Translations under genes and position numbers: made by a program
Assembly: GCA_051294375.1 (NCBI GenBank)
Contig: CM119266.1
Coordinates: 19,975,657-20,039,656, forward strand
DNA length: 64,000 bases
Reading direction: 5' to 3'
Source of the DNA: Paraspadella gotoi
Lineage: Eukaryota; Animalia; Chaetognatha
Shown: piece after piece, positions 27,455 through 50,771 of the stretch
Layout of the letters: each line of letters opens with the position of its first letter
Numbering within the stretch: position 1 is the stretch's first letter
The notes under the pieces: model-generated
The model's input: only the letters and a program-made list of their open reading frames with translations
What the model was told of the DNA's origin: nothing
Databases searched by the model: none

Positions 27455-29400
27455 TTAAAAAGAAGCGTCGTGCCTTTTGGCAGTTAGTCTGAGGATGAGG
27501 TAAGTGCTAGGCTCATAGTCTCTCCCGGCGCCCAAGTCGTGCCACGTGACCGCCTCGGCGCTGTCACCGGCTCGAAACCGAAGTGGCGGAGCAAAGTCCC
27601 GTCGTCGTCGTGAAAATTGAGCGCCATTGTTTCGATCCAAGCGTTGTCAGTGTTACGAGGATCGTCGACGTAGCTAAAACGTCCAATTAGATTATTAAAA
27701 GGTTCAATTATTAATGATTAATAATTAACTCAATGATTAATCTTATTACAAATACTGTACAGCGCATACCCTTGATAAACTTGAACTCCATGCGCAAAGA
27801 GAAGATCGAGATCTTCTTCCAAAGTCTTCTTCTCGTTGAAGAGAGACTCGAGGTTCCCCATCGCTTCCTCCGTGAATTCCGATTGAAGGCAAAGGTGGAT
27901 CGGCTGGCCGGGGCGTCGAAGTCCCCCTAGGGATTGTCAATTGCATGAATCAACAACAAAAATAGATAAGATATTTTTGGCTCAAAATAAATATTTCACC
28001 GGGTAATCCCCACTTGTCGCTATTCTTGTGTCTTGTTGCGACAAACTGGAGCACCTTTCTTCCGTTGTTAAAAACCTGACGGTTGCATAATCAATGTTTT
28101 AAAACTGAAAGGATGCGAATAAAATATCACAAAAAAAAGTCTCACAAAACGAACCAAGCGGTGAGTTACGGGGTCGCGTTTCCATCGCGTGACGACGGCA
28201 TCGCCAGAAGCGTTTGGCCCCACCGCCCTAAGCAGCCGCGTCCTCTTAATCCAGTTCTACCCTGGGGGTTAATCGGAACGCCTTCTTCGACGCGATAGAT
28301 TCCGGTGTAGCTTCTTCGGTCCACTTCGCACACTTTGTCATATTCGTTGAAGGCGAGAGTAGGTCGTTTCGAAGCAGAGAACCGAAAAAGATTTACCTGT
28401 GAGCAAAATGTATTTCTTAAATGACAAAATGAGTGACAAAATGCTCGAAAATAAATACTTTACAAACTAAATAAAAAAAATTTATATTTAAAATTTACAA
28501 GTCAAAGTAACACAAATGGTATGGTCCTATCCAGAGAAGATCCTGAGAATGAAAATATAATAATTTAAGCCCATTTGATTCCATTCACAATTAAAAAGTA
28601 AAAAGGTAAAAAGGTAAAGTAGAATAACATCTTTAATGTGCATATGTATCATACCATGTAAAGTCACGTGATCACTTATTATAGTCACGCGATCACAAAA
28701 CAAATGAAGGATATTTTGCGTAATATTTGATTGTTTTAGTAGAAATTTTATACATAAAAGATTAACCATAGGTTATCATATATATATTTTATAATCATGT
28801 TGTTACGTAATCCCCCAAAAATAGACATGAGGCGCAAATACATTGAAATTACCGTTCCTGTTTTTATTTATTTTAAAGTTCTAAAGCTTCATGCAAAGTC
28901 GTTGATTAAAGTCAAAACACCTCACCGAATCGGCCCATTTGGGTGGCGGTTTGGCGAGAATGACGGGATCCGTGAAGGTATGGGGATCGTACGAAGGGAA
29001 TGAAGAACTCCAGTCCACGCGATCGTCCGGGATGTAGAAACGGGTGACGTGGGGCGCGCCGGGATACGGTGACGTGCGAGAAAAAAGATGGAAGGAAGCG
29101 TCGAGTGAATGAAACTCGATGACCTAAAAAGTAAACAATTTATTCGGTTCTTTTCATTTTTTTCAAATTTGTCACGTGATGAATTTAATGAACGACGCCT
29201 CACCGACTTGACTTTTTCTTCCGCCTCGACCTTGAGTTCGTGATTTCGGGCGTCACGACACATTGACGCTGAAAAGAAAAAAAAACCTCGCGGTTGTAAA
29301 TAATTGTACACGTTACATTACAATTTATATCAAACAAAATCCCACATGAAGGTCTTTTTTTTTAGAAAAGAAAACCAAATAATTTATTGCCGGAGATGAG

Positions 29401-29469
<69 letters not shown>

Positions 29470-32400
29470 TCTCTCCTCTCTCTCTCTCTCTCTCTCCCTC
29501 CTTAGATCTTTCTTTCTCATTCCTTCTAAAGCAGATTGAGAATATTACTTGATACAAATTTAAAAAGATTTTTAACATGATCCGGAAGGCTCATAATACG
29601 TAAAATGNNNNNNNNNNATGAATCTTTCTTCACGGATGTCAACGCACTTACCGAGCACGTGCGGCATGACGTCGTGGATCTCCCGTTCGTCTACTTCGAC
29701 GAAGAGCCGGTCGGTCCGTCCGCCAGTCGCCGCTTGCAACGCCGCCACGTTGATCTTGGATCCGGCGCCGATGGCGTAGAGGGTCGGTTCGCCGGGAAAC
29801 GTCGTCGTCGTCGTGGGCATTGTCTCGTCGCTCGCCAAATCGGCGGTGATCACGATCGCTATCTGTTTACATTTAGATTTCAGGGATTTAGATTTAGATT
29901 TCAGGGATTTGGATTTAGATTTCAGGGATTTAGATTTAGTTTTCAAGGACTGCGGGGAGAGGCGACAAAACCGCCTCGTTTCTGAAGATCCTTCCCCGTT
30001 GCCAAATTGGTGAGCCCTGCTCTTTAACACGCAGCATACAGAGAAAAGCTGCAGCATGAGCGTCACATGAGGTCACAGAGTCGCCCACCACCGATTTGTC
30101 CCAAGACAGTGCTATTTAAACCCGGCCATTGTCGCCGATGATTCCTTAGCCACTAACCGCCAGTACTGCATTGCTACGCGCGAATTGACGGCGATTCCCG
30201 GTCAAGTGACGCGTTTTATGAGCGAATTAGTGAAATGATCCATCGAAATTACACACTGTGTAATACACAGTATTACTATTAGAGAGTATTTATAAGCCTG
30301 CTCGTATTGAGGCCACGCGTTGTTTAAAAAATTATGCCATTTGTTACCATTGCTAAATATTTCACCTTCGTGACGTGCGGTTCGGTTCTCTTTCCTTGGA
30401 GTCGAGTGAAAAGCCTTTTCACCCGTTGATTTAGCGAATGGGCCGACATTCGCCGTTGATTGTCCTCGGATTTTAAAGATCTTATTTCACGAAGTAGATT
30501 AGTTTTGTCCAAGTATCTTGGAAAAGTAATGAAAGAAGTATATAACCGGATCAATATGGTTTTAAAATAAAAAATGACAATATTTTTTTGTATCAAAATT
30601 TTTGTGTGAATCATTAAATTCGAAATTATAAATACGCTTAGAATCTTAAAAAGATCACGCAAAATTACTCTCAAAAAATTATTTGAAATTAAAAATGAAA
30701 AATTACTTTTAAAAAGTAAATACTTGATACTTTAATTACTTATTAATAGAGTATAATTTTATTTTCAGCTTCCTTTCACTTAAAACGTCAAATCGCAGTT
30801 ATCATTGAGCTTTACTTGTTAAAAGGAAACTCGGCCACAATGTCTTCCCCAAATCTGGCGACGGCCACTTGATTCGCGTCGCGTCCAATTTTCAAGCAGC
30901 TTGTTAAAATAGCAACGAAGTCGATGACTTTGGCAAAGCTATCGGCGCCGAAACATTCGTCCAAGCAAAACAGAAGATCGAATTTATGCCGATGACCGCA
31001 GGCTATAATAAAAAAAAATTTAATATCATGTTTCAGCTCCGTTTAAAGGTAGGTAAAGATGAATTGACTTACCCTTGATCCAAGGAAGTGCCGAAGAAGA
31101 GCTCCTTTCTGAGTCCAATGAATGAGGAATCCTCGTCGAGAGCGAGATTAACGTCTCTTGCACCTGTTGCATCTGCGTCTCAATTCGCGAAAGGCGATCC
31201 GCATCGCCAGCTGACGACTGTGGAAGGAAAAATGCCCGAATAAGGATCTCGTCAAAACATCGCCGTATTGAAACGCTTGGTGATCCATCATTGTAAAGGG
31301 CCGGAATTTTTTTTACCAAATTTACGGTAATTTATTGTAATTGTATGACTCTCATGCACCAGCTATTAGATCAGATCTATCTAACGAAATAATACGGTTG
31401 TCTGTATATCTTGACTCCTTAGATTATTTGTATCCTGAAATTTCTTACATACCGAGCTGTCTTCATAATTTGGTTGAGGGGGGACGTTACTCTTGTCCTT
31501 AACGCGCTCCATATGATCTTCAAGCTTGTCAAAGACCATCTCAACCCTATACACATAAATTAATAATTTTTTTAATGACTCTTCAATAAAGCCCATGAAA
31601 ATTCAACGTCTACTTTTACTTGTTGTTATAACGTCATAAGTTATCACAATCACAATTAGTTGATAGATTAATTTATTGAATGATTTATTAATTGATTGAT
31701 TGATTGATAGATTATATAAATATACTATGTCACCGTTTGGATAGGCCAGTGACTTTATTGTCAATGTTGTTATGAGATTGGAGGATTTTTGCTTTCGAAT
31801 GAGAATCTGCGCAAATTTCTTCCCACATGTTATATTGACGAAGTTCAGATTCGGGAATTCGTAGTTCTGGAAAGAAAATAATTGACGAAGCTATATCGAA
31901 AACAATTAATTAATCCCCGAAACCGTTTAAATGAATAAATCAAAAAAATATCTAGGATATTTTTTTTTTTTTTGGATTTAATCATATTTTACAAATGAGT
32001 AATAATTCAATCGACACGCACTTACTAAAAAATGAAGAGTCATCGCTTTCGTAACAACATTTTTCGGCGATATTGCGATAAAGAAGAAAAAGATGGTAGA
32101 AGACGATGAAAGGCGGCGGGATGGGCGGCTTGTGGAAATATTCGTAGATCAGATGGTATCGTTGATACTTCCAAATCCTGTGGAACATTTTTTTTTAAAT
32201 GAACCTCCAACTTTGTAAAATGCTGTTTGCTGTAGTAGGATTTAAAGAGATAGGTTTGATTCTTGCCTAACCTGTCGGTGTTCTCTTGAACCTTTTCAAA
32301 GGTAAAGGAGAACATAGCAATGAGTAAATTGAGAAGAAGAATGTTGGTAAAAAGCATGTAAATGCCGAGTAGAATGGGAGCGAGGTGTTTACCCCAATCG

Positions 32401-35400
32401 CTGATGCAGCGGACTGGTCCACCATCAAACTCATCCTAAAAAAATACAATAATCTTAATGAGAATCTAAATAAGAAGCCTTTTGTTAATTCAAAATCGAT
32501 TAATTTTTTTTATTAATTAATTATTAAGTAAGTAATTAATTAATTATTTATTTAATTAATTTATTATTTGGAATCTTTACCACAACTCCTTCCATGTAGT
32601 TGGTAGAAACGTTACAGACGCTGTCATCCTTCTCGAGAAATAATTCTCCATATATATTCCAATAGGCCTTTCGCAGAATATTGTTGACAAGCTGTTAAAA
32701 AAAAATATGGAAAAGTAAAAAAAAGCTTGAGAGACGAAAGAAGCTTGATACACAGAAAAGCAAGAACGAGAAATAAAACGGAAGAAAAAACGAAAATGAA
32801 AACGAGGTTAAGGATTATGGTTAGGAATTAGGGTAATGGATTAGGTTATGGCTTTGGTAACAGATTAGAGTTCAATATTTAGGTTGAAATAAAGTTCAGA
32901 GATTATGGAGCAGAAATTGGGCGCTTTTGGAAAAGAGAGCCTAAAAATTAACGTGCAAAAAATTAACTGCAATGAACTGGGATTTTTTTTCTTCGTTTTT
33001 TTTTTATATTTGAATAAAGGACAAAGAGTAGCGCTAGTAATCGTTTAAGATTCTGGCAATCTACGAATTTGACAAAAGAGCAATGCATAGAAACCAAAAA
33101 GAGTTAACAGGTGGGAGAAGGGAAAGAGAGAGGGAGATGGAGAAAGAGGGGAGAGGGGTAAGAAAGAGTGAAAAAGCAGGGCGTTATCCCGAAGGTCTAA
33201 TCAGAAAATCTCTCTCTGTTGAGCGACATATATATAAAAAAAAAAAAAAGAGATGCGACAAGCAAACAGGAAACGACGGACGATAGCGCCGACGATGCTA
33301 TTCTTCGACCAAATCATCCCCACTTGCGACGATAAAAACGATAATATTAATAATAACAAATATTTTAAACTTTTAATCACAAATAAACACCTTCAAGTCT
33401 AGTTTCTCCTCGGGATACAACAACGAATGAGAGGCCACGCCGTAGGCGATGAGAAAGACGACGAGTATGAAGATGAAGAACACGACGTCGTTCATCATCC
33501 TCTTGATCATGACGACTTTCGGGCCGAGATTTTGGTGAACGCTGAACGAATGAAGGAGGCGAACGAAGAAAGTGAACAGAGACAGAGTTAGCAAGACTCG
33601 CGATAGGTTGTGGAGAACGTTGGCGGCTTCTTTTCCCAAAGTCGGGGCCTGCCTGACCCCTCGAAGAACGTAGCCGAGAATGAATGAGCCGAAGGCGACG
33701 ACGTCCACTTGATTCCACTGATCACGCCAGTAAGAATGGAGCTTAGCGTTTAGGGATGAAAGATGATAGCGCTGCGTCTGGATACGGAAGGAAATGGAGG
33801 CAGTCTAAGCAATAAGGATCAGACTTGTTTATCTTCTTATATTTTCATTTAATGGTACTAACATTTTTTTCACGCTCGTTCGTTCAATTCACATACGCAT
33901 TAAAAAATTATCTCACCATTTTTCTTTTGATATGAGATGGAATTGCCTTGTGCTTATCGAAAATCTGAACGTTGAAAAAAATAAATATAAAATTAAATTT
34001 ATATCTTAGTCGTTTAGAGACTAACTTATTCAAGGATCGTTTTTACTATGCCCATGACGCATTAGTATGTAGCTCTAGCTGATTCTCTAATTCGTGGAGC
34101 ATCGTTTCTAATTCGCTAGCGCACCTGTCGAAACTCCTCACATATGACGGTGAAGGTGCTGCCGATGAGGATCCACTCGGAGATCGTGGCGCGTGTCTCG
34201 AAAAGTTCGCAGAGCAACACGTATGAGAAAAGGATGAGGTAAAGTAGATGAAATATCTGGCGGTGAATCAAAAGCTAGAATGTAATAATATTATTATATG
34301 TTGTTTTTTTAATTTAGCTGCAGTTTAAAATTGAAAATTATGAGAATATATATTTTTTTCATTGCTGGTCGCCTCTAAGGAATAGACTTAATTAACTTTA
34401 TTTGTACTTAATTTATTGGAGAAAAAAAATTAAACGAAAACGGTAAGATCAAATACTATAATAACGGCAATATTAGTTCACTTTTGTTTTAAAACTATTG
34501 AAAAAATAACTTTTAAAATATTCAAATGAAAATAATCTTACTCCGATTACACAGATTTTTAGTCGGATCTGCTTATCGCAGATTCAAACTCGATAATTCA
34601 CTTTGCCGGTCTGTCGGTCACACCACAAAATCTTGTCGGTAAATCATTTAGATCATGTCTGAACATTGAATTATATGATAAAAATATGATATATTATTGT
34701 GTATTTCTCTCTTTTCGTTGTATTAATGATTTATGGAAATTATTGTTAAATAAAATCGTTGTAACAGCTAATAAAAAATTTTTTTTCCTTATATAAATTA
34801 TGAAAAAACCAAGATCGGAAATTCAAATGTGTGTTGCGCGGGAGTGACTTTCTTAGCCCATCTTTTACTCTTTGATTTTGAGGTTTTTTTCCTGTCTTGA
34901 CAAATGAGAAACCAACTAGAGGCGAGCTTTGAGCAATGAGCATCTTTAACGTAAGTGGGACAGACCGACGGACAGACATACTGACCAACCGAAAAGCGTC
35001 TTATAGTCATAAAATTGCTCCGCGAGTACTCGCGGCGCAACTAAAAAGGATGTCAGTCTGTCTAACAATTACTCATAATTGGATGGATGGATTGGAATTA
35101 AATTTTTAATATGGGATGGAAAGTGTGTGATTGAGCTGGATATAAAATTTTGAGTTTAAATGGAAAATACTTTGGCTAGCAAGATTATTACGTTTAGAAT
35201 TTTTGCATTATTGATTGACTGATTGAACAACTGATTGATAAATTTTGTTATGGACTTATTAAGAAATTTGTTTATGATTTATTATGTTATGATTATTATT
35301 ATGTAATGTTCATATATTAAAATATTTTTTCACGACTTATTCATCTGATCCGACATTGTTTGTTCAAATTTGTATAAACTTTCTATAACAAAAATCCCTA

Positions 35401-38400
35401 TGTTACATCGCTTTCATCAAAGAAAGACCTGATTAAGAATGAAAATGGTGATGGGCGCGTGATAAAAGGCGCGGATTTTCCAAAGAGGAGCCGGTTTGAT
35501 GAAAGTGAGATCTCTTGGCAGAAGGCTGAGAGACGAGGTTGAATGCGACTCCTGAATTCGAGCTCGACGTCGCCTCTGGATTCAAAATACATATGTCATT
35601 GATAATTGAGAGATTGGTTTTATTTTGGTTTTGAATTAGGATTTGGGTTAAAAATTAAGGATAAAGGTTTAGTCTTAAGGTTTAGGATTAGGTTAGTGTT
35701 TAGTATTAGGGAGATTAAGTTCTAAAAATAGGAAGTTTAGATTAAATATTAAGATTGAAATTAAATTCGGGGATAAAGGAACAGAAATGGGGCGGTCTGG
35801 GAAAAGAGAGCCACGGTTTATAATTTATAACAATTTTTCTGTCCCTTCAGTGTTATCCTTTGAGTTTCTACATGGCCGATAATCTGATAAATAAAAAACT
35901 GTCGAAAAACCATATAATTTATATATTAAAATGGATTTTCTAAATTCCATAAATTCCAGTCAGGCATATATTTAGGAATAAAGGACTGTTTAAAATATAT
36001 TTTCTAAAAATACTTTTTGTTAGTACTAACTTTAATACTTGTTTACTCAATATCAGTTTTACCTTTAATCCTTTACGATTAGGCGGCCGATTATTCTTAT
36101 ATTTCTAATTTAATAAATAGCTTAGTAAATTGTTCTAAAAACAAGTGTTGCTTTGGTCCTTCTTTCTCCACCAACTGTTAAAACCTTTCTAAAAAGGACA
36201 AACCAGAGAATCCTAACTCAGATTTAATTCCCTCTTCCTTCTCCCACCTCAACGAGAAAAATAATTCCTTTCCTAATCCAGCGCAATCTCTATTTTAACC
36301 AGCGTCTCACTTGCTTTGCTTTTATTAAGTGTTTAGTAAGTATAATCCGTGTGTTGTTATTATTTTCCTTTATTTGACATGAATATTTTTCTAATTTCCT
36401 CTCTTAGCTATGGCCTGCCGTCCTATCCCGTTGAAGCCGCCTTGCAAGTACGATGCGGACAAGCTGGAAGGTAGGTCATCGGGTAGTTAATCTCGCTCGA
36501 ACGATATCTTTCACCATACCTCTCTTTACTCGCCCACAGCCTCGCTCCAATTTCAAAACCTATGGACCCCGGATTTGTGCGACGTTCTCTCCGGGAAGAA
36601 GTCGGATCCTGACTCCGTCAAGCGTCACGTGGACATCGCAATCGTGGGTGCCGGACCCGCGGGTCTCATGGCCGCCTACGAGCTGCAGAAGATCCCCGAC
36701 GCAAGGATCGTCTTGTTCGAGCAAGCGGATCGCGTCGGCGGGAGAATTCTCACAGTCGGTAAGTTGTATTTATTCACCCTGTCATTATTTACAATACGTT
36801 TTGTAAAACGTAAATCAGTTACTCCGGATTTGAAAATTTGCTCTTTTCTCCCCTGTTCAGGTTATCACGGCAACTACGAAAAGGACTGCCGTGGCAAGGA
36901 CTACTGGACCAACCAGAAAACCTACGGCGAAGCGGGCGGGATGCGCCTCCCTCTCCCGCCTGAGATGTACATGAAGGCCAAGTACCCCGAGAAAAAGGAT
37001 ATTCTGGAAATCAGCAAATTCACGAACAAAGAGATTGACCTCTTACTCCACGGCAAAGAGCCTTACGATTTCGTCGAAGACAGGGATTTCCCCATGCCGC
37101 TCATCCGCCATTACATCAAGGAAATGCAGATCCCCTGCAAGAGGTTCAACATGAGCGTGGCCGCCGCAGCTGTTGACGTCCAGTTCGGTGATCAAAAGTT
37201 CGATGGTTACTACGTTCGCGGCGAGGATGGTCTTCTATACGACGGGGACCAGAAAAAGCTGACGGACAACGTCATGTCCTTTTTGGAGAAAAACACTTCG
37301 GGCGAGCAGCTCGAATGGCTCAAGAAGGCCGGCGAGCTATGCACTTATTTCGACTTTTGCATCACTAATCGAATCAGGAAGGAATTGCGTCAACTAACTT
37401 CGGAAAAGTGGAACGACTTTCTCTCCGATTGGAACATCACTTACCGAGAGTGCCTCACCCAAGCAAAGAACAACAAGGGAAAGATCGACTTCGACAAATG
37501 GCCCGAAAACATCCTCAATTTTTACGAAGATGTTTACCGCGTGGAGATGGACGAACCCGTGAGCACTTCTATCATCGAAACCGATCTCGGCCAATGGTGG
37601 CAAGATACGGGTATGTTTTGTCCCATGTACGGCATGCACGCCATCTACGAGCAGCCGCCGGCGTCGCGCCCCCATATCGACGAGCCTCCTTCCAAGAACG
37701 GGCCGACCAAGGCCCAGGGCTTCAAGGACAGGCTTAACAATAAGGTACAAATTCATTACAATGGATGCGTGACGGGAGTCTCCAGGGATTCCACTTCGGG
37801 CAAAATCGACGTCACCATCATGGAAAGGCCGCTCTTGAGTTCCTTGGCCTTCGGTAACGAGGAAGTCCACGAATTTGACGCGGTCGTTTTGACCGTCCCG
37901 CCGAAATGTCTGAAGGAGATCAAGGTGAGGAATTTTCCTGGTCTGCCCGACATAGGCGAAATCGACTTTCCCGAGAGAAAGGCTTCCAAGAACATCTACG
38001 AATTTTCCTCGATGTTTTGGAAAAAGGGAGATGGGGAGAGTCACAACCGCGGAGGATTCGAGATGAACGCCCACAATGGATTCGCCACTTCGTCCAAATC
38101 CACCGAGAAGGGCTACTTGTCTCAACTTCGTTACTCCACTCCCGACGAAGGCAACGTCATCATGAATTACGAGTTCGCCAAAAACGCGGAGGTTGCCTCG
38201 CGTCACGACGACGCCACCATCCTCGACTTCGTCCAGAAGTTCCACACCGGCGTCGACGTCAAGGATGCGGCCGTCGTTACGGACAAGGAGAAAACGACGG
38301 TGGGCAAATTTCGAGCGCCGTGGATGCATCTGAGCAGCATGCCCTTCACGCCCGAGCACGTGGCCACTCTCAAGAAGTTCTGCAACTACGGCGACGCTCC

Positions 38401-41400
38401 AGGTCTTTACTTCGCCGGTGATGCTTGGTCCTACAAGCCGCAATGGCAGGAGGGATCCTTCTACACGGCCCTTCACGCCGTCTTCCGGCTCATCAACGAC
38501 TTTTCCGGAACCAATGCCTCGGATCCTTTTCAATACTGAAATGTTTTTATTCCATGAATTTTTATTTCGGTGACATTTTTACCTGCTTTTTATTGAAATG
38601 AAATGGATTATATTATTAAAATCGAGTTTTTTCTTCGATATAGTTTAGGTTAGTCTTTCTCGTTAAGGGCTAAAGTTATTACGCGACACGCGTTGGACTG
38701 ACATTGAAACTATAATCAAACGTTATTATTTTAATTACTAGTCTGGAAGTAAGATATTAGAAGCTTAATTATTTAAATATTATTTAACTCGATAAATGAT
38801 ATAACGGATAAACAACCTTTGTTAGCATTGTGTCCGACGCCGTTCGTTATTACGAAGTTTGGCCCTGAAAAAAAAATCGGAGCAGTTTGACGTGGAAAAG
38901 GGAAAAAATCATCTTGCCACCAAAGGCAATGACCTCAGTTACCATCGATTGTTTGGCTGCCTTGAGTCAGGTAATCATTGGAAGTCCTCTCATTAATATT
39001 CGTTAAAGGATCTTTATTGGATGAGACTTTTAGGTCTGAAATTAGAAAAATGATTGAGTGTGCTTTTTAAAGTACTACATAAGTATACTTTCATCTCAAA
39101 CTTTTCCATTTCAAGAAATAAAAATACAACCTGCAATGGAATCGCGAGAATTTGAAGTTTCCATGTTGACAAATTTATCCTTCACGAAGTGAATGAGTGG
39201 AGAAGGGATGAGGAAGAAAAAAAACGAGGCGGCAAGGATCTGGATTCAAATTTTTTTGCGCGTGAACTTCTTGTATTTTAAAATTGTATTCGTTATAACG
39301 TCCTACTTACTCTGACCAGACCGAGCTGGACACGTTCCATATTTTCTCGGTCGATCTCACCATACCAGATGGAAGAGAGTAGCATCTGACAAACGTGGTG
39401 TGAGATAAACCGTTCGTTTTTTGCCTTTTTTAAATTTGAAAATGAAATGTTGCTAGGTTAAGTTACAAATAATTCAAATACTAAAATAATATTTGTTCCA
39501 ATTTGTGAAGAGGTGAAAAAATTATATTACCTCGACCGCCAGCTGAAGACAGGTGCAGCAACCAAAAGTTGGCAGCTCCAGGATGAGCAGCCGCTCCGCA
39601 CGACGTTCGTCCGCTTCATTGCACTGATTCAAGATGGCGATGGCTTCGTCTTCGAAAAACCTGTAGTTTTTTAAATTTTTATTATTATCATAATTATTAT
39701 TAGTAAAAAACCGATGAAAGATAATTAAATAACTTACTCGGCCAAATCGTCGCACTCCAAACTCTTGTCAGCGTCGGCGCCTTTGACGCTCTCGCCCATT
39801 CGGCGCTGAAGCCTCGAAGCCATCAACGCCGAGGCCAGTGGGTGACGACCTTCGGACATGAAGAGGCTCGCCAGAGATCTCCGACCCATGAGGACGCACC
39901 AGATGAACAACTCGCGGGCCGGACTGTCGAAGGTTTCGTTAAGAAACTCGTTATCCAGGGAGTTGATGTTCCTGTTGGGATTTGTTGTTAAATAGTAGTT
40001 GATTAAATAAAAGAGCAAGTTTTGTACGTTTAATTATTAAAGTAAAATCAACGGCGCAGCCTTTAGCGACTGGAGCAAATGGAATACCTGATTGGAAGGT
40101 TAAACGCGGAAGGAGGTCTGTGTGTGTGCAAGGCCGCCATGACGCGATTCTTGCGAGCTGACAGAGGCTTTCGCTTAGCCCCATGTTTTACTACCAGCCC
40201 TTTGCGCCCTTGCATGGAGTTCTCATCCTAAATTAATGTTGTTTGGTTCATTATATCATAGTTTGCAAGGGATATGAAAGAGATACGAAAAGTATCACAT
40301 GCCTGAAAAGTGTCCCGGTATCTTTCGTCGACAAGATAAAGAGGATAATAAAAATCTCCCATCAATTCGCGGATAACGAATCCGACGTCGGGTAGCGATA
40401 CGTAGCGTCCCTGGATTCCGAAATAGCCTTTTTGGTCTGTAACTTTAAGTTCTCTTACTCTCGGCCTCGCTCACACTTACAGTGACTTTGTTGCGAAAGT
40501 TCTCGAGCATTTTAAAAAGGATGCAGTGTTTGGGGATGTCATTGTAGAGGTGAAGGAGCCGTTCGACAGTGGCGAATTCAGTGAGATTGACAGCAGGATT
40601 CTCCAGCAAAACCCGGACGAAATCTACTTTATTTTCCAAGATGGCAGTATAGAGAATGTTGTCGAGCGACCCTTTCTGAATTGAAAAGAATTGAGCGGTT
40701 TATATGTTCGTACTACATCTTATAGGTTTTCAGAATTGATCCTCTTTCGAGAGATGATTATTTTAGACACGTATGTGATTCTACAAATTCACTATCACTC
40801 CTCAGTCCTCACAGTAATCTACGCGCTGACGGAGACGAGAAAAAAAAAAGAATCGTTTTTCGGCAAAAAAAGTTTTATTCGCGGGAAACGAGCATCGGGA
40901 ACAATCGAGGCGAGGCGAGTCCCTCAGCAAAATTAATCATTAACATTAGTTTTTTTTATTAATTTCCCACTTTTACTAAAACAGATTCCGCCACGCGGAT
41001 GTAAATGGTCCGTGTAGTGTTCGAGCGCAAAGGATCGCGCGGCCTAAAGCGAAAGAAATTCGTCTCGACGTTTGATGTCCTCTCTCCCTCCGATGACGCT
41101 CAACGATGCTCTGGGTTCAACTTCCAAATGTTGTAATTGTGAGAAGTAGACAGCAGGCACCACAGTAAATAACCTGGGATTTGGAGAAATAGTTGGGTTA
41201 TGTGATGTGAAACCTGGCGTTTGTTTATACCTGCGTAGTAGACACTCACCGTACATGATGTTGGAGGCGTAATGGTTGATGCAACTGAATCCCCAGGCGC
41301 AGAGGAAAACCAAAAATACGAGGACCAACCGATTCGCTAGTGCCAATTCTAGGCGTCGTGACTGAACAAATTAGATGGGATTTAGCACGTTTTGGTTAAC

Positions 41401-42443
41401 CAAATTGGCAACAGGGTATATAGCTGTCCCTCAGAGCACCTTGAACATGAGGTGACCCCAAGCGAGGTTAACTAAGAGTTGGGCGACCCAGTTGATGAGG
41501 GGCACGTGCGTGGTTTCGTTGAAGCCCCCGCCAGCGATCAACACCAAATAAGCTGCATAACCTGCTCTTCGGGGAAAAGCAAAGTTACGAAATGTCACTA
41601 AGGACCGGAACCCCGTCCACATAGCTTACCTGTCCCGGTGTACAGGAATGTCCAGATGGGTCGATAAATAGCGCCAGACGGTCTCCAGGGCACTTTCAAG
41701 CTTTTGTACCATGATTTAGCCTCTGGATCCTAAAAAAAAAGGGCCCGGGCAAGTTTGTATATTAATTTTTTACTTCTCGGAATTTTCGTGCCACACCTGC
41801 GACTGCAAGTTAAACTCGATGTATCCCGCGATGTGAGGGACAATGCAGGAGAGGACGACGTAGGCGAACTCGTTGGAGCAGATGCCCCCGGAAGAGAAGC
41901 CCTGGCAAGGCATCTCGACGGCGACGGGGGCGAGGCTCGAGCCGTCCACCGACTCTTCCTTCCGGCCGCTGTCAACGGACACATTTTGCCGTCGGTTGTA
42001 AAAAGAAATCGAGAAGGTCACGGGGTCGCTGCGGCGGCGACGCGTAGAGATTTAAAAAAAAAAAAACAAAAGGCAAATTGATTACAAACTCGGTGACGGT
42101 GACGGCGAGGCTCGGCGAAGGACCCCGAGAGTCTCCGCGTTTCTTCTTCGCGTGAGTCGATGAGCGTCGACCAAAGAGACGAAAAAAAGAAAAACTTTGA
42201 CGGAAAAAAATCGAGGATGAGAAAAAAAGGTTTTTTCTCGGGCGAACCGAAACTGCCTATGTGGAGGATCTAGCAGAACTGTTTATATTTAGAGGCGTCA
42301 TTAAAAGGCGTTAATAGGGTAGAGGGAGCGCTAGAGAGCGAGAGGGGGATAATGAAATATTGAAAACAAGTGTGGGAGCCTTACACCGCGGTGATTTAAA
42401 CTGCCTGAGAAAGCTACATTAACGAGTCTTTGCATGTAATTTC

Positions 42444-42521
<78 letters not shown>

Positions 42522-42925
42522 ACCTCCCACAGCTTCTGACGCGTGAAAATCTCCTTGGTTACAACATCGACGCGATTCCACGCCAGCGCCAATTTTAGTT
42601 GATCCATCGCGCAATTTTTGTTCGCTTTCAGAAGAGCTCGAAGAATGGCCAAGTCCATGTCATTGCAGTCGTTCGTTTCTGCGTAATGAGAAAAAAAAAC
42701 ATGATAGGAGTTAAAATATTACAAAATGCGAATTTTAGCCTACCATTTACCAATGATAATTATTCAAATTATAATAATTTTCGATTAAGTTGCGCATACA
42801 TTATACATCCGTTGTATATTGTACATAATCTATCCAGACAATTATTATTTAGTTATTTAGTAAATTTTTGCAGCATTATTTCTTTCCAGAATTATATGGC
42901 AAGATTTCTTTCATTTTCTATACAA

Positions 42926-42974
<49 letters not shown>

Positions 42975-45500
42975 GTATAATTCCGTTCGTTCTCTCGCCA
43001 TCAACTCTATAACGGATACATAATTCCTTTTGGCGACGATTCCCTTCACCCAGTCAACGATCGTGTGAAGATTCTAAAAAAAAACAAAAGGCCACTAAGA
43101 ATTGATTTTGATTGACAGAGATTATTAGAGCGAACGATGTTTTTTCCTTTTAATTTTAAGTTGTTGACTGCAAACAGAAAATAAATCTTTTGAAATCGCA
43201 TTGGTTGAGGACAACTAATGAATATTGAATAATGAATGTAATTGAATAATGAACAATGTCATTATCGCTTATCCGAATTTCGTGTTTCTCTATCAGAAGT
43301 TTCAAAATGCTTGAAAGATCGATTCTTAAAAAAAATGTCGTACTGAAAGGTTTTTTTCATTGAATTTTTACGTGTTTTCGCGAGATTTTTTTCCCAAAAT
43401 GTCTGTCAAGTTTGCCAAAGGAACAAAGGACGAACCGGAGTCATCGATGAGCTTGGTCGCAAATTCTAAACGCCCCGACGCTAAGGGAGTGAACAAGAGC
43501 AAGTCTGATGCCAGAGGTCACTCCAAGTCAAGAGTTAAAAGGAAGTCCGGCGCAAATGGCGCCACTTCGAGGACCATTCACTCCGCCAACCGTTCATCCA
43601 AAGCTACGCAAAACTTTAAACGCGATGACAAAAATGTCAACCGGACGGTTTTGGAAAGAAACTTGAACTGCACCCGATTTTCTCAGTTTTCCGATCAATC
43701 CGGGGACGGAGCTAAGAAAAGTGGGACTGGGGAGGAAGAAGAGGGAGATGACGGAGAGGAAAAAATTATGCGTGAGAGAGATGACTTTGTCGAAGCTATC
43801 AAAGGTGCTCACTTTGGCCTTATTTTCCCAGAATTTTAATTCAATCGAACTCACCAGTGAATGTACAATGAGATCAACGGGTACCGATTTGAATACAAGT
43901 TTCATTAACGCTTCAAAGTAAAGTCATGAAAATTGTTTTGAGTGCCCTCATCCTAATTCAACATAAAGGTGTTTGCCCCCAGACAAAGTTCAGATCGCTT
44001 TTCCCAGTTTTCTGATTTTCGAATTCTTTTTGAGGTTCTGGTTTTCCGCTTTGAACCTCACTCTCTTCGTTGCGCCGCGAGTACTCGCGGAGCAACTNNN
44101 NNNNNNNNNNNNNNNNNNNNNNNNNNNNNNNNNNNNNNNNNNNNNNNNNNNNNNNNNNNNNNNNNNNNNNNNNNNNNNNNNNNNNNNNNNNNNNNNNTTT
44201 TTTTCTTTGCCCCAATGCTCATTGATACCATTCTCTCATTTAATTTCCAGCCTGATCGTCATTTGGCAAGACAAAGTCTCTATGTCTCCTCCAGCCGCCA
44301 AGACAATGTTGGGGCATCTTTTTTGAGATTGATAATTTTTGCGCGATTTTAAGTTAAAGATTTTTTACATTGTTGCCGCTTTGGATGTATGTTAAGATAT
44401 CTCACCTCGCTAAGCTCTTTTCGTCATTTGACCACTTTTAGGCCAATTAATTTTATGGTCTCCTGCCTCAATTTTCCGTTGTTTATGGAGGGACACGTAA
44501 AGGAGGATTGCTGTTCAGAGGCGTTGCGGCGCCTGCGATGGGCTACACACACGTCGCTCATGATGAGTTTCATGATGTTTGAGCTGCCTCGACTTTCTGG
44601 TGACTTTCGAGAATGGCGATGGTGATTCAAATGTTGTTTGTTTATTACAAAATGATTAAAAACGTTCATATTAGGCCATATTTAAGTCCACAAATCGCTG
44701 AAGAAGACTCTAAGACAGTAGAAACATGTACAACTTTTTTGCAATTACAATCGTTGTTGCATTATAAAAACTTTTTCCTTAACCTCAAACACAACGAAAA
44801 GAAAGATCATTAAGTCACAAATATAAAAAAATTCATTAATATATAAAGAAACGGCTTAAAACCGTACAATTACGTACTTAGTGCCCCTGAATCGTAAACA
44901 GATTCCTAATAAAAAATAATCGGGATATTCCCGGTTTCACGTTTTTTCATCGTCTTATAATTGTTCGCGTTCCTCTCTCTCTCGAGAAACGGGGCAAAGT
45001 TAAATGCCTTTTTTCTCCCTCTACGGTCATGCCCATACGCAGCCACACCGTTAAATGCATCACGCTAAAATGGGGTAATTTTTCGCAACCGAGTAAAACA
45101 AAAATATTACGGAATCTTCTTTACTGTTTTTTTTAAATTTCAGATTTTTTTTTCAGGATTTTTTTTCTTTATTTTTCTCCCGAAAATTTTTTTTCAAAGA
45201 ATTAATCCTAATTATAAGGTTTTTTATTAAATAATCAACAAAATATCGAGATTGGTTTATTCTTTAAACCTAATTCGAAAGTTTGAAATGAATTTCAACA
45301 ACGATTTTATTTTTTACTTTTTTAATGCTGATGAAGGCTTGTAGTTAAGCCGAAACATGTCCGTTTTTTTTATTAAAATAAAATCGTTGTTGAAATTCAT
45401 TTCAAACTTTTCTAATAATTATTACACAACGAAAAGAAAGGATTATACCACAAAACCTTTATTCAAAATTCAAGAGATGAAGCAGATGAGTTGGGTGAAA

Positions 45501-45539
<39 letters not shown>

Positions 45540-48500
45540 GAGACTCTCAGCAGATCATAAATGAGTCAAAAAACTTTTTCATAGCAAAAAATCCTGATAA
45601 GGTATAAGTAGAAAGACTTCGTCGTCGTGTATTCGTCGTCGTTTTGCCTGAACTATTTGAGCTTCCAAACAACGACAAACCAGAGTAATCAGAAAAAAAA
45701 AAAGAAAGTAAAAACGTTAAGTTTTTTATTAGGGATTTTTGAAAACTGTTCTCATTTTTCGGCGGGCCATACGTGAGACTATCCAAGAAATTTCAGTACC
45801 AGTTGAAAAGTCTTTCATCCTCTTGAATTCGCCGTATGCGTAATGATATCGAAAATCTTTGTTCTTTAATCTCATTGCATATTATAGTGCGGTAAAAATT
45901 TTAAAACGTAAATATCAATAATGGGCTTTACTTTTAAAAAAATTAACTTCATATACTCATTTAGGTACATGGAAAGTACAGAATCACAGTCAGGCAAGGC
46001 CAAACTCTGATATCGATCCCGGCCTTAATACCTATAGTTTTTGCTCATTTATTAAAATCAAATATCCAGCGACACTGCGCCCCTTCTTGTTTTTAAAAAA
46101 ATCTTATAAACTAAAGAAAAATAATGCGGCGCAATACCTTGAAATAACCGTTCCTTGCTTTACTGAGCGAGACAAAGAAAGGCTTCCGTTTCGTAGCAGA
46201 TCGCCATTGGTTGCATAAAAGCTTGTCAAAAAACTTTAGAAGGGTAAGCAGGTCAAGTTGAAGTTTTGTTTAAAAAATTTTACAAAATAAAGATTTTGTC
46301 CCGCCGGCTAGTCGTATTTTTTATAGGACGAGCACAAAATAAAATTTTCAGGACTTTTCTAATTATTAAAATCTATATGGTTAGCCATTTTTTTAAGGTC
46401 GGTACCCGTGGATCTCCTTGTAAATGTGCTTATAGTTATACCCTTGATTTAGTGTTTCACGGTTATTTGCGTCGGTGCGGCTTAACGAAGATTATCATCG
46501 GCGCATTAACCGAACTGTACGAAAATCAGGCCAGTCAGTTTGTACAATCTTTACAAGATCTATCATAATTCATCGCATTTATTCATTCTAAATTTATCAT
46601 ATATTTTGATAATTTAAACAAATACTACAGGGAGATACTGAAGATCCGCTGCTCTTCATGAAGACATACTTCGATTTCGCTCTTGGAACAGGCGGAGAAT
46701 TTCAAAAATTAACGGCCATGTTGGAAAACCTGACAGATAAGGTAAATCGATGGTACTATTTTAGTATTTATAATCGCGACAATCGCTTTTAACTTTGGTA
46801 TTTTTTTTTCAACAGCATTCTTAAAAACAGTGTATTTTGGTAATAAAAGATTCTTTTACGTTTTTTTTCTCTTTATATAATTTTTTTTTCTTCCTTTTCA
46901 CCTTATTTCTTTATTTCTCTGCCTTTAGCTGGATTTTACAACCAGAAATATTGTTCTGCTCTTGTTTTTGGTTTTTTTATTAGTATTGATAGGTATAACT
47001 AATGACTAAATGACATAAAAATGGAATCTTGTAAAAGAGATTAAAAAAGAAAGCGTTTGAAAAAGGAGAATTAATTGTATATCGACTTTCTTTTCGTTTA
47101 ATTTTAAATTTAGAAAAACCATTTTATTAGTTTTATTAGTTACAAACAACTATTTTCATGACTTTTTTACTGACCTAAATCAAGGTTGAAACGGTTCTGT
47201 GCGAGATCGAGATGGACATGAAATTAGCTCGTGATTTTCTAAAAGACCCACAACTCGATGAATTCGAAGGCGAAGAGGAGGGAAGTGAAGAAGTAAAAAT
47301 CTATTCATCGCAATTGGTGATGGTTATAACTTATAAACTATATGTCAAATCCTCTTTTTAAGCCCGGGGATCTGGACTCCGAAAACCAAAATGCCAACCG
47401 AGAGACTCGCCGCGTCAGATTCGGCGCTGCGACCATCCAAGCCGGGTCACCGCCGAGATCTTCGTATCCAAACAAGTCGCAATCGGCGGTTAACTCTCCC
47501 AGAGAGAATAATAAAAATCAAGAGGCTGAAGAGGAGATCCGCGATTTGACGGAAAATGAGGAGGACGAGGAGGAGGAGAAGGAGGAGGAAGAGGAAGAAC
47601 CCGTGCCGAAAACCTCGCGCGAGTTACGACTCGAAGAGATGGTGGAGCGGCATCGTCAAATGCTGGAGAAGATGAATGAGGCCGACAATAAAGGGCTGGC
47701 CTTGAGGAAGGACATCGACGATGTCCGCGCGAAAATGAACAAATGGGAGGCGGAACAGAAGAAGGCGCTCGTCAACACGATCCCGGATTCTATCGTCGTG
47801 AGGGAGAAAGAAGTGAAGACTGAAGAAGAAGGGGAAGGGGAGGAAAATGTGGAGGAAAAGGAAGAAGAAGTTGAAGAAGTAGACAAAGGCAATAATCAGA
47901 ATAACAAAAACGGAAACAATGATTTTTCTCGGAAGAAGAATAAGCGTAGGATTATGTCGGCAAAGTCTAGAAGTTAATCCGAAGGATGTTAGAGGTGATC
48001 GGCTGATCACTTTGCCGGAAAAACAAGATCAGCACTCTAATTTTATTAGTTCATAATCAAGACTAGTCTGTTGGAAAACGTGGGAGGAAGGAATAATTTT
48101 TATTGTGAAAAACATAACCTTTATATTGTTTTTAAAATTGTAATATTTTATTTGTAATATTTTATCTGTTAAAGCACACAGAGACAAACAATTCATATCA
48201 TATGTATATCCTATAGGAGTGAAATTTCAATATATGTTATTAATGCATTTTTCTTTTTATCCGTTTTAAGCAAGAATCTAGCTCAGTTCGATTAACCTAA
48301 AATAAAATCAAGTTAATGACATTGAAATATTAAATTTATATGATATTGTAATATCTAATTTTTAATATTATAATGTATAATATTATTAAAATAAAAAAGC
48401 TAGCTTTCACCTTATTATAAAATTACACAACAAGAAGAACCTTACTAATAATTATTACAGACAGACTAAAAAGTGACTTAGAGAGTTGCACCGGTAGTAC

Positions 48501-50679
48501 TAGCGGCGCAACTCAAAAAATATAACTGGAAAAGTATGCGAGACTTTATTTATAATCATATGTGTTTTTCAATTTTATGATTGTATAAACCGCGTATAAA
48601 TACTTTTAGTTTTAATAAGATTACCGTCAAAAAACCAAAACGATGGTTTGATCACTCACTTTCGAGCCGAATTCGATTTCGACCCTTTTGACAATCTCGG
48701 CATCGAGTCTGGGTTCTATCACAGATTGAACCTCGGACAGCGTGACACCGTCGCGATCCGTCACCTGATACACGAATCGCAATGGATTAATTTATGATCA
48801 AATTTAGAAGTTGACCGGAATGCGAGACTGACTGACCTCGACCTCGACCTCCTTGGAGTGCTTATAGGCGTAGGCGATGATGTCGGCCGCCCTGCCGGAA
48901 CCGTTGACAACGACGACGGGGGTTCCGTTGGAGACGGATTGGTAAATGGTCTCCATCGTTCCTGGTCCGCCTTAGGGAATCAAAGAAATAAGAATGAAAG
49001 CTTTTTTTCTGTATCAGAATAAAAACAAGAACAGGCAAGTTCAGGGCAAATTTCTTTTGTAGATACATTTCTATATCATCATGTGACTTGACAAGTGTGA
49101 AAAATAAGCACGAGCGTGTGGTTGATCACTTTTTTGTAAAGCAAGCCTCATTGACTCTCCGATTGCGTGATCGTATTTCTATGTGGTCGCCGGTCCCGAC
49201 ACAACAAAGTACACAACATATGCGCGAGTAACTTTTGATCTATTTTGATTAAAATTGTAATTAAAATTATATGAATTGCAACACGTAGGTTTTTTGGTCA
49301 TATAATCGAAATTTTATGTGATTTTATGTGATCGTGTTTGCACAAGTATGTAAAATGTGCACATTAAGCATCTCATAATACACAATATTTGTACCAAATA
49401 TTATCAAGAATTGTTCAGTATTAGCCATGTTATGAGCGTCTAAAATGTAAAATAGACAAACGAAAAGTGACTTAAAGAGTTGCTCCGCGGATGCACGCGG
49501 CGCAAGTAATATAAGAGGCGTCTTCCCTTTCCTTTAACTCACCTTCCAAAGCCATGCAGACAACGGGGACGGTGACGGCGCTGCTGCCGCGCGAAGTCTT
49601 CAACTCTGAAATGCTTTTCTCCATCTCGGATCGAAACTTGATTTCCCGTCCGAATCGTCCCTTTATAAGTTCATTCAATAAAAGTCTTTAGATTAACGAT
49701 GAGGAAAGAATAATAATTAATATACCTAGCATTTTCTCTCCTCTAAAAAAAAATTATTCAAATTATTTTGAATTATTTTGACAGCCAGAAAATTTTAATC
49801 AATCATCGATCATCACTAAGCATTTAAACAATCACATTACAAATAGGGGTCTTTTTAATACAGATTATTTTAAAAACATGTTTGTGACTATCCATTGATT
49901 AAGAGTTATCCACTGAAAGTAAAACTGACCTGCGTACCGTCGTCAATTAAGATAAAATGACTATGGTTTGGATCAAGAGGAGATTTTCCCTGTTTCGCTT
50001 TTGTTACTCGGTAGTTGGCTGGCCACTTACCCTGAAACAAAAATTAGAAATTTAGCATAGAAGTAACAACTAACATTTGACATGATAACATTTCGGCTCT
50101 CTTTTCCAAAAGCGCCCCATTTCGGTTCCTTAATAATGTTTCATAATAATATTTAACCCAAATTAGTAATCTGTTAACAAACTCATAACGCAACCCTTAA
50201 CCCTAATCAGTAAACTGTTAACAAACTCTTAACCCTAATTCCCAACCCTAACCCTTCACCCTAACCATAAAACCCTTATCTCTAACCCTAACCTCTAATC
50301 CTAAACCTCAGTCCCTAACCTTAATCCCTAACCCTAATCACTAACCTAATCCATAACCTAATGCCTTATCTAATGACTAATCCCTATCCCTGACCTTTAA
50401 CCTAATCTTTAAACCTAAAAACCCATATGCTCCAGTTGCTCCTCGTTACTGACCAGTCCATCCTCGCTGACGAGTTCTTCCTTGTTTTGAATTATTCCCC
50501 AAGTGGCGACGCCTATGGTTACAATTTTTTCGTCGCCGGTTCCCCCGCCAATACCGACGCCGGCGGCTCCTCCTCCAGCAGAAAAATCCCGAACGGCGTC
50601 GCCAACGTGACGCATGACGCCGGTGTGGGTTCCTCCAGTCAAGATCCAAGCTCCTTTTTTAGGAAAGAGAGAAAAATGA

Positions 50680-50771
<92 letters not shown>

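What the first reader, a model, noticed from the sequence alone, without database searches (positions are those of the whole stretch)
29204..31002. TRPM2-like channel with a complete VWA domain spliced between the coiled coil and NUDT9-H
Seen: the coiled-coil exon (31217-31073) ends in phase 1 and the first NUDT9-H exon (29123) starts in phase 0, so they cannot join directly. Four GT-AG exons (187, 151, 211 and 65 nt) bridge them with matching phases and no stops, and they encode a full VWA pattern (FDLLFCLD, FAKVIDFV, IGRDANQVAVARFG, EFPFNKY, IAIVITAD, LYAIGAG). Known: canonical TRPM2 is MHR1-4/TM/TRP/coiled coil/NUDT9-H with no VWA, and I know of no described TRPM-VWA fusion. Inference: a new channel architecture with a cytosolic interaction module next to the ADPR-hydrolase domain.
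Basis: partly seen in the sequence, partly recalled or inferred. Interest (0 to 1): 0.92.

Follow-up and report, generated by a model that had tools for sequence, protein, structure and literature searches.

The report
TRPM2-type channel with inserted VWA domain
An invertebrate gene for a TRPM2-type ion channel splices three extra exons, predicted to encode a collagen-like von Willebrand A (VWA) domain that has lost its metal-binding motif, between the channel and its ADP-ribose-enzyme tail, where the domain likely acts as a cytosolic docking or spacer module; my searches found no description of this layout.

Summary
Observation confirmed. RNA settles it: one 2,777-nt spliced contig joins coiled coil, V1, V2, V3 and V4 with no mismatches in the laid exons.

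V1 passes the Pfam VWA cut-off; V2 and V3 fit only by pattern and weak leads. The 183-aa insert is a phase 1-1 cassette, and removing it restores the linker length of the closest homologs (196 aa against 189-225). The MIDAS is lost. The host is an invertebrate TRPM-beta channel with ADPR-site, filter and Nudix-box residues kept.

0 of 86 homologs have VWA, but several carry other stray domains, so accretion is common. Two one-base frameshifts in the NUDT9-H exons are unresolved and are probably assembly errors. No relative was found that reaches the VWA, so selection on it is untested. Ten paper searches found no TRPM-VWA fusion, and the scan had not noted it on other DNA. Verdict: real, new variant of a known kind, function inferred.

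The parts
27455..51337 (-). TRPM-beta (invertebrate TRPM2-type) gene, 36 modelled exons, about 1,790 aa modelled; the true 5' end lies upstream of 51337 and was not resolved
   Evidence: Exon model. BLASTP 37-38% identity over the channel part to brachiopod and mollusc TRPM2-like proteins. Tree.
33391..33777 (-). Transmembrane exon (S2-S3 linker to S5)
   Evidence: Pfam Ion_trans E 6.2e-11 on the frame holding it; 978 relatives at E<=0.001.
31453..31546 (-). Pole-helix exon
   Evidence: Aligns with homolog helices; in the RNA contig.
31073..31217 (-). C-terminal coiled-coil exon, ends in phase 1
30816..31002 (-). V1: N-terminal third of the VWA domain, with the N-terminal Cys and DECFG in place of DxSxS
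   Evidence: PF00092 above cut-off. Best PDB matches collagen VI alpha3 and integrin alpha1 I domain. ESM Atlas top hits VWA, score 0.90. In the RNA contig.
30366..30516 (-). V2: middle of the predicted VWA domain
   Evidence: In the RNA contig. No Pfam or useful PDB hit alone; assigned by position and recalled VWA pattern.
29652..29862 (-). V3: C-terminal part of the predicted VWA domain; a Thr run stands where a helix is expected; ends in phase 1
   Evidence: In the RNA contig. ESM Atlas rank 2, score 0.89, cluster 37% VWA, a lead only. Single-sequence fold pLDDT 47.
29608..29617 (.). 10-N assembly gap in the V3-V4 intron
   Evidence: bridged by the RNA contig.
29204..29268 (-). V4: C-terminal Cys of the VWA domain plus the charged linker helix that homologs also have before NUDT9-H
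   Evidence: Loose end of the contig matches its start; alignment.
28926..29123 (-). N1: first NUDT9-H exon
   Evidence: phmmer E 1e-13 to TRPM2-like homologs; 58% identical to P0171.
28155..28396 (-). N2: NUDT9-H exon with a one-base frame break in a G/C run near 28216-28221
   Evidence: Two frames are needed to match P0171, which reads through intact.
27770..27926 (-). Exon holding the Nudix box (SEFTEE, canonical invertebrate type)
   Evidence: Alignment; consensus in PMC6461439.
27455..27673 (-). Last exon, with a second one-base frame break near 27570 and the stop codon

Best explanation
This gene splices a 183-aa cassette, predicted to fold as a collagen-VI/matrilin-type VWA domain and likely gained by exon shuffling into a phase-1 intron, between the coiled coil and NUDT9-H of an invertebrate TRPM-beta channel, where it likely works as a metal-independent structural and docking module that repositions the ADP-ribose-hydrolase ring. 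Shown: the spliced mRNA, the VWA profile hit on V1, the position and size of the insert, the loss of DxSxS, and conserved ADPR-site, calcium-site, filter and Nudix-box residues. Inferred from known TRPM2s: ADP-ribose plus calcium opens the pore through the N-terminal MHR1/2 site and NUDT9-H hydrolyses ADP-ribose, so gating should not need the insert. Inferred: a VWA fold has its two ends close together, so it can loop out of a linker, and four copies would cluster under the tetrameric coiled coil. There they would change how the four NUDT9-H domains pack and how fast they turn over, or would bind a partner without metal.
For: One spliced contig carries the cassette between the pole helix and V4. 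PF00092 passes its cut-off, and the best PDB matches are collagen VI and integrin I domains. Oyster P0173 aligns to model residues 5-1292 and 1475-1793, leaving almost exactly the cassette (1293-1475) unmatched. S6-to-NUDT9-H spacing is 379 aa with the cassette and 196 without, against 116-225 in 15 of 15 homologs measured. GC3 is 0.62 in the cassette and 0.59 in the rest, and two internal introns are kept, which fits long residence. Key residues are kept. In choanoflagellate TRPM2 this same linker holds the buckle helix, which tetramerises NUDT9-H, slows hydrolysis more than 2-fold and tunes gating (10.1101/2023.03.16.533055, passages). VWA ends lie together and are often closed by terminal cysteines (PMC4294422, passages); both cysteines are present here. 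A collagen-VI-class VWA was inserted into integrin alpha chains (PMC12422189, passages).
Against: There is no functional data. No second species was found that covers the VWA: P0171, the closest relative (66% over NUDT9-H), starts only a few residues before NUDT9-H, and V1 searches found nothing. Purifying selection on the cassette is therefore untested. The whole domain was not scored or folded; V2 and V3 have no Pfam hit. The collagen VI match is weak per domain (best 16 bits, i-E 0.16; the 2.9e-23 sums repeats). Some flatworm homologs have 220-336-aa unmatched linkers with no Pfam domain, so this linker tolerates bulk. Phase 1 is not rare here (8 of 31 junctions). Two frameshifts in NUDT9-H and one unresolved phase break between 38817 and 35575 remain.
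Confidence: 0.45

Rival explanations
1. Tolerated passenger: the VWA exons landed in a flexible linker, are spliced in, and act at most as an inert spacer.
For: The MIDAS is lost and a helix is replaced by a Thr run. The linker length varies widely among homologs. NUDT9-H is not needed for gating in invertebrate TRPM2 (10.1101/2024.03.18.584035, passages). No relative with the cassette was found.
Against: 549 nt stay open with the hydrophobic strand pattern, both terminal cysteines and three clean splice junctions despite deep divergence from known VWAs. An in-frame skip path exists, yet 1 of 1 contig includes the cassette.
Confidence: 0.25
2. Built-in trafficking adaptor: the VWA does in cis what the copine-6 VWA does in trans for TRPM3, raising the number of channels at the surface.
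For: The isolated copine-6 vWA co-precipitates with TRPM3 and raises current density (PMC12317139, passages).
Against: V1 resembles collagen and integrin VWAs in the PDB search, and no copine appears among the 28 matches. In that paper copine-6 acted on TRPM3 and not on TRPM2.
Confidence: 0.1
3. Regulated cassette: V1-V3 is alternatively spliced, giving channels with and without VWA in different tissues. This does not exclude the readings above.
For: The cassette is symmetric (phase 1-1), and cc-V4-N1 is open and of normal length.
Against: Only one contig was laid. It runs unbroken through both cassette borders, and no loose end appears at 31073. Contigs drop rare forms, so this is weak.
Confidence: 0.1
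4. Decaying tail: the frameshifts are real, so this allele makes a channel plus VWA with a truncated, inactive NUDT9-H, or is a young pseudogene.
For: Two one-base breaks in NUDT9-H exons and one unresolved phase break upstream. The RNA letters at those sites were not seen.
Against: Both breaks lie in G/C runs. The motifs downstream of them, including the Nudix box, stay 66% identical to P0171, which reads through both. The gene is transcribed and spliced. The contig's length past V3 (493 nt) ends exactly at a possible splice branch only if the RNA has one base more than the assembly in N2; this is a weak hint because that donor is unverified.
Confidence: 0.08
5. The VWA exons belong to a nested gene or come from a mis-join at the 10-N gap.
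For: This gene does hold nested genes in other introns: an amine oxidase and a same-strand TspO/MBR gene. There is an N gap in the V3-V4 intron.
Against: One spliced contig joins channel exons to V1 and V3 to V4 across the gap. V1 has no Met in its own frame between the upstream stop and the exon.
Confidence: 0.02

Closest known systems
Invertebrate TRPM-beta / TRPM2 chanzymes (Nematostella nvTRPM2, Salpingoeca srTRPM2, mollusc and brachiopod TRPM2-like)
   Same: MHR1-4, 6TM, TRP helix, coiled coil and NUDT9-H. Both ADPR-site arginines, the G/T/T triad, the S2-S3 calcium ligands, a YGE filter and an xEFxEE Nudix box align. The tree places it beside brachiopod and mollusc NUDT9-H-bearing proteins.
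   Different: A 183-aa VWA cassette in the linker, absent from 86 of 86 homologs scanned. Two unresolved frame breaks in the assembly.
Integrin alpha I domain (a collagen-VI-class VWA inserted into a membrane protein; PMC12422189)
   Same: In-frame insertion of a collagen-VI-like VWA into an older membrane protein.
   Different: The integrin I domain is extracellular, keeps the MIDAS and lost the C-terminal Cys. Here the domain is cytosolic, lost the MIDAS and keeps both terminal cysteines.
Collagen VI / matrilin VWA domains (Pfam PF00092)
   Same: V1 profile hit, best PDB matches, terminal cysteines, phase-1 flanks.
   Different: Cytosolic location, DxSxS reads DECFG, and a Thr run in the C-terminal half. 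The donor gene was not found (no copy in the window; no genome held).
Copine-6 with TRPM3 (PMC12317139)
   Same: A cytosolic VWA acting on a TRPM channel.
   Different: A separate protein with C2 domains, acting in trans on a TRPM-alpha channel. No copine match was seen for V1.
TRPM6/7 (alpha-kinase gained at the C-terminus; PMC13143021)
   Same: Domain gain in the C-terminal cytosolic region of a TRPM.
   Different: A terminal enzyme rather than an internal non-catalytic module placed before a retained NUDT9-H.

Membership tests
TRPM-beta (invertebrate TRPM2-type) | MHR/SLOG N-terminus, 6TM domain and TRP helix | tested here: met
   Ion_trans E 6.2e-11; continuous BLASTP over residues 5-1290 to proteins with LSDAT_euk and TRPM2 Pfam hits; TRP box aligned.
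TRPM-beta (invertebrate TRPM2-type) | C-terminal NUDT9-H domain | tested here: met
   66% identical over 303 aa to P0171.
TRPM-beta (invertebrate TRPM2-type) | Canonical Nudix box (REUXEE type, EF kept) | tested here: met
   SEFTEE; nvTRPM2 has AEFGEE (PMC6461439).
TRPM-beta (invertebrate TRPM2-type) | N-terminal ADPR pocket residues and invertebrate-type filter | tested here: met
   Both arginines, G/T/T and YGELFL align with fish, Monosiga and invertebrate rows. The residue list is; matching to human numbering is by recall.
TRPM-beta (invertebrate TRPM2-type) | Falls in the beta clade of a tree | tested here: inconclusive
   FastTree on 32 rows, VWA removed: sister to 11 rows that include the brachiopod and mollusc proteins, support 92, not starred; no reference-labelled clades.
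TRPM-beta (invertebrate TRPM2-type) | Intact reading frame through NUDT9-H | tested here: inconclusive
   Two one-base breaks and one unresolved phase break in the assembly; reads at those sites were not seen.
TRPM-beta (invertebrate TRPM2-type) | ADPR/Ca-gated current and ADPRase activity | not testable with these tools
   Needs expression.
VWA domain (PF00092) | Profile match above the curated cut-off | tested here: met
   V1 alone 25.3 bits against 23.8, E 2.1e-5; ESM Atlas 0.90.
VWA domain (PF00092) | Full-length Rossmann-type fold of about 180-200 aa | tested here: inconclusive
   187 aa from Cys to Cys. V2 and V3 have no Pfam hit. V3 Atlas lead 0.89; V3 model pLDDT 47 with strand-helix-strand order. 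The spliced domain was not folded.
MIDAS-bearing VWA (integrin I / matrilin type) | DxSxS...T...D metal site | tested here: not met
   DECFG aligns with DGSNS of integrin alpha1. The T and D positions read R and A by recalled consensus, not by a tool alignment. Motif definition from PMC4294422.
Collagen VI / matrilin-type VWA | Closest relatives are matrix VWAs; terminal cysteine pair | tested here: inconclusive
   Best PDB hits are collagen VI alpha3 and integrin alpha1, with per-domain E>=0.16. Cys at positions 2 and 187; the second lies in V4, outside the phase 1-1 cassette.
Copine | Tandem C2 domains with a copine-type VWA | tested here: not met
   Homologs align continuously on both sides of the insert, leaving no room for C2 domains; no copine among 28 PDB matches.

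The most novel reading that the evidence does not exclude
An extracellular-matrix module was moved to the cytosolic foot of a TRPM2 chanzyme and re-purposed as a switch. Its five cysteines (the terminal pair, and one in place of the first MIDAS serine) would respond to oxidation, and four VWA copies would open or clamp the NUDT9-H ring, coupling redox state directly to ADP-ribose turnover and channel closing.
Probability: 0.1. Interest if true: 0.85.

Novelty: new variant of a known kind. Interest (0 to 1): 0.56.

Why it matters
The linker between the pole helix and NUDT9-H is where the one structurally studied ancient TRPM2 couples its enzyme ring to gating. A natural channel with a folded 20-kDa domain at that spot, and an in-frame deletion form that is easy to build, is a ready test of how much that coupling matters. 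It is also an uncommon case of an extracellular-type phase 1-1 module shuffled into a cytosolic region, paralleling the integrin I domain on the other side of the membrane. Two large TRPM surveys do not mention VWA in the text or the supplement I could search. The interest is limited by the single species, the unknown function and the frequency of other stray domains in invertebrate TRPM models.

Tried and rejected
No whole genome is held, so paralogs and a donor gene could not be sought beyond the window (none there).

The run search listed one holder and none on record as RNA. That the contig is mRNA rests on its spliced joints. Only 29625-31600 was laid, so RNA letters over N1-N5 and the frameshifts were not seen.

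V1 searches for relatives were blank: word search (12 candidates, 0 hits), metagenome contigs (596 pattern matches, 0 confirmed), plasmids (2 chance hits) and earlier findings. These are weak negatives. The TM-exon metagenome hit L001 is a 14-residue match with no TRPM or VWA on it and was dropped.

phmmer of the spliced VWA against all 177 proteins held gave best E 0.35. There was no positive control, so it is weak. Pfam was run on 86 of 177 (all of 900 aa or more, plus five shorter ones with long tails); 91 shorter ones were not scanned.

The V3 fold (pLDDT 47) was too poor to search. The first tree run did not finish and FastTree was used instead. Rfam found nothing at gathering level in the window and one chance hit in an intron.

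My early guess of a sponge was dropped after the tree and the BMP neighbour. The TRPM gene in PMC2997562 (passages) is not shown to be this gene and VWA is not mentioned there.
Full report
Observation. The region lies in a multi-exon minus-strand gene. All are AG/GT-bounded, and the path from the coiled-coil exon to the first NUDT9-H exon has no stop. Of 16 exon subsets, three are open and keep NUDT9-H in frame: the full path, cc-V4-N1 and cc-V1-V2-N1. Two further worries arose: a 10-N gap in the V3-V4 intron, and nested genes in other introns of this gene (an amine oxidase; a same-strand TspO/MBR gene).

RNA evidence. One run, X1, holds 0.36 of the sampled words and is only guessed to be RNA. 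Laid on 29625-31600, 1 of 448,509 records matched: a 2,777-nt contig at depth 19.3 that covers only exons. It shows all four joints inside the stretch with CT..AC ends on + and has no other letters. Its loose ends match the start of V4 and the end of exon 31866-31734, so it crosses the N gap and continues into the channel. This rejects a nested gene or a mis-join. It does not exclude a rarer skipped form, and it is one data set.

Is it a VWA? V1 alone matches PF00092 positions 1-56 of 174 above the cut-off (E 2.1e-5); V2, V3 and V4 match nothing at E<=10. The best PDB matches of V1 are collagen VI alpha3 and integrin alpha1 I domains, but the best single-domain score is only 16 bits. ESM Atlas gives VWA clusters at 0.90 for V1 (143 of 256 features shared, below the 170 usual for same-family hits) and a lead at 0.89 for V3. 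By recalled consensus, the remaining strands and helices of a matrix-type VWA are recognisable in order, with a Thr run where one helix belongs. The segment is 187 aa from Cys to Cys and has five cysteines. DxSxS reads DECFG, so the MIDAS defined in PMC4294422 (passages) is lost. The spliced domain was not scored or folded as a whole, so 'complete VWA' is likely rather than shown.

The host channel. A 36-exon model gives about 1,790 aa; the 5' end is unresolved. It is 37-38% identical to brachiopod and mollusc TRPM2-like proteins over the channel part. On a FastTree of 32 rows it sits beside them (support 92, not starred). The ADPR-site arginines and G/T/T, the calcium ligands, a YGE filter and the Nudix box SEFTEE align with invertebrate TRPM2s (PMC6461439 passages; 10.1101/2024.03.18.584035 passages and section 18). 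In the terms of PMC13143021 (abstract, sections 30 and 33 part 1), a non-vertebrate bilaterian TRPM with NUDT9-H and an intact box is TRPM-beta. The assembly has two one-base breaks in G/C runs of NUDT9-H exons and one unresolved phase break upstream. P0171, an unnamed relative 66% identical over NUDT9-H, reads through both breaks. I read them as probable assembly errors, but did not see reads there.

How unusual is the insert? Oyster P0173 aligns to model residues 5-1292 and 1475-1793, leaving the cassette out almost exactly. Spacing from S6 to NUDT9-H is 379 aa with the cassette and 196 without, against 116-225 in 15 homologs; some flatworm linkers are longer but carry no Pfam domain. Pfam finds VWA in 0 of 86 homologs scanned, out of 177 proteins held. 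The same scans show FN3 (4 abalone proteins), NHL, TIR, RyR, SH3_15, ankyrin and reverse-transcriptase domains on other TRPM models, none verified by RNA, so domain accretion in this family is not rare. No relative covering the VWA was found, so its age and the selection on it are unknown. GC3 like the rest of the gene and two internal introns suggest it is not recent.

Mechanism. Steps taken from known TRPM2s: ADPR and calcium open the pore through MHR1/2, NUDT9-H hydrolyses ADPR, and NUDT9-H is dispensable for opening in invertebrates. In srTRPM2 the linker between pole helix and NUDT9-H holds a buckle helix that tetramerises NUDT9-H, slows its turnover and affects closed times (10.1101/2023.03.16.533055, passages). 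The cassette sits in this linker, just before the charged helix that homologs share. VWA termini lie together, which explains why the insertion is tolerated, as with the collagen-VI-derived integrin I domain (PMC12422189, passages). Phase 1-1 modules are mostly extracellular, with a few intracellular cases such as titin (PMC8001218, passages; that paper does not name VWA). I judge a metal-independent structural or docking role most likely (0.45), then an inert spacer (0.25), a copine-like trafficking role (0.10; PMC12317139, passages), a regulated cassette (0.10), a decaying tail (0.08) and an artefact (0.02). The architecture itself I put at about 0.93.

Literature. Ten full-text searches (listings seen) returned no TRPM-VWA fusion. 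'VWA' and 'von Willebrand' occur 0 times in the main text and in the one held supplement file of each of PMC7306681 (over 1,300 TRPM-like sequences, 14 phyla, arrow worms not listed) and PMC13143021. In PMC10725132 VWA appears only for alpha2-delta (passages). Other supplement files of those papers, supplements of the bioRxiv papers, subscription journals and InterPro architecture lists were not seen and could hold such a fusion.

Verdict. A real, transcribed and apparently undescribed domain architecture in one invertebrate: a new variant of a known kind, function inferred, interest 0.56.

Noticed in passing
window 36491-38536 (+): FAD amine oxidase gene (Pfam Amino_oxidase E 1.3e-17) nested on the opposite strand in a TRPM intron, with a very long exon.
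   Followed up: partly
window about 41100-42050 (-): TspO/MBR (translocator protein) gene nested on the same strand inside the TRPM intron 42523-40676 (Pfam E 1.7e-5; sequence). Same-strand nesting is uncommon.
   Followed up: partly
window 43330-43918 and about 46400-47977 (+): Further open frames on the opposite strand inside the TRPM intron 48659-43074, which also holds a 100-N gap (44098-44197); the frames scanned had no Pfam hit.
   Followed up: no
window 17345-19459 (+): BMP/TGF-beta gene with propeptide and mature domain in one long frame. The mature domain looks like ADMP by recall; not tested.
   Followed up: partly
window 40303 (-): One TRPM intron in my model starts with GC rather than GT; not checked against RNA.
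   Followed up: no
window 29866-29949 and about 29950-30300: The V2-V3 intron has three 21-nt tandem copies just before the V3 acceptor and is GC-richer (0.44) than its neighbours (0.22-0.35); no Rfam match.
   Followed up: partly
window about 50180-50420 (-): Degenerate TTAGGG-like repeats inside a TRPM intron.
   Followed up: no
window 57098-57391 (+) and 60511-61856 (-): A glycoside hydrolase family 65 exon and a Ras-family GTPase gene.
   Followed up: no
P0053, P0101, P0158, P0159; P0087; P0138; P0120; P0077: Other TRPM models with extra domains: FN3 right after the TRP helix in abalones, NHL repeats in a rotifer, and TIR, RyR and SH3_15 domains in unnamed ones. The abalone FN3 is a second extracellular-type module on the cytosolic side.
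   Followed up: no
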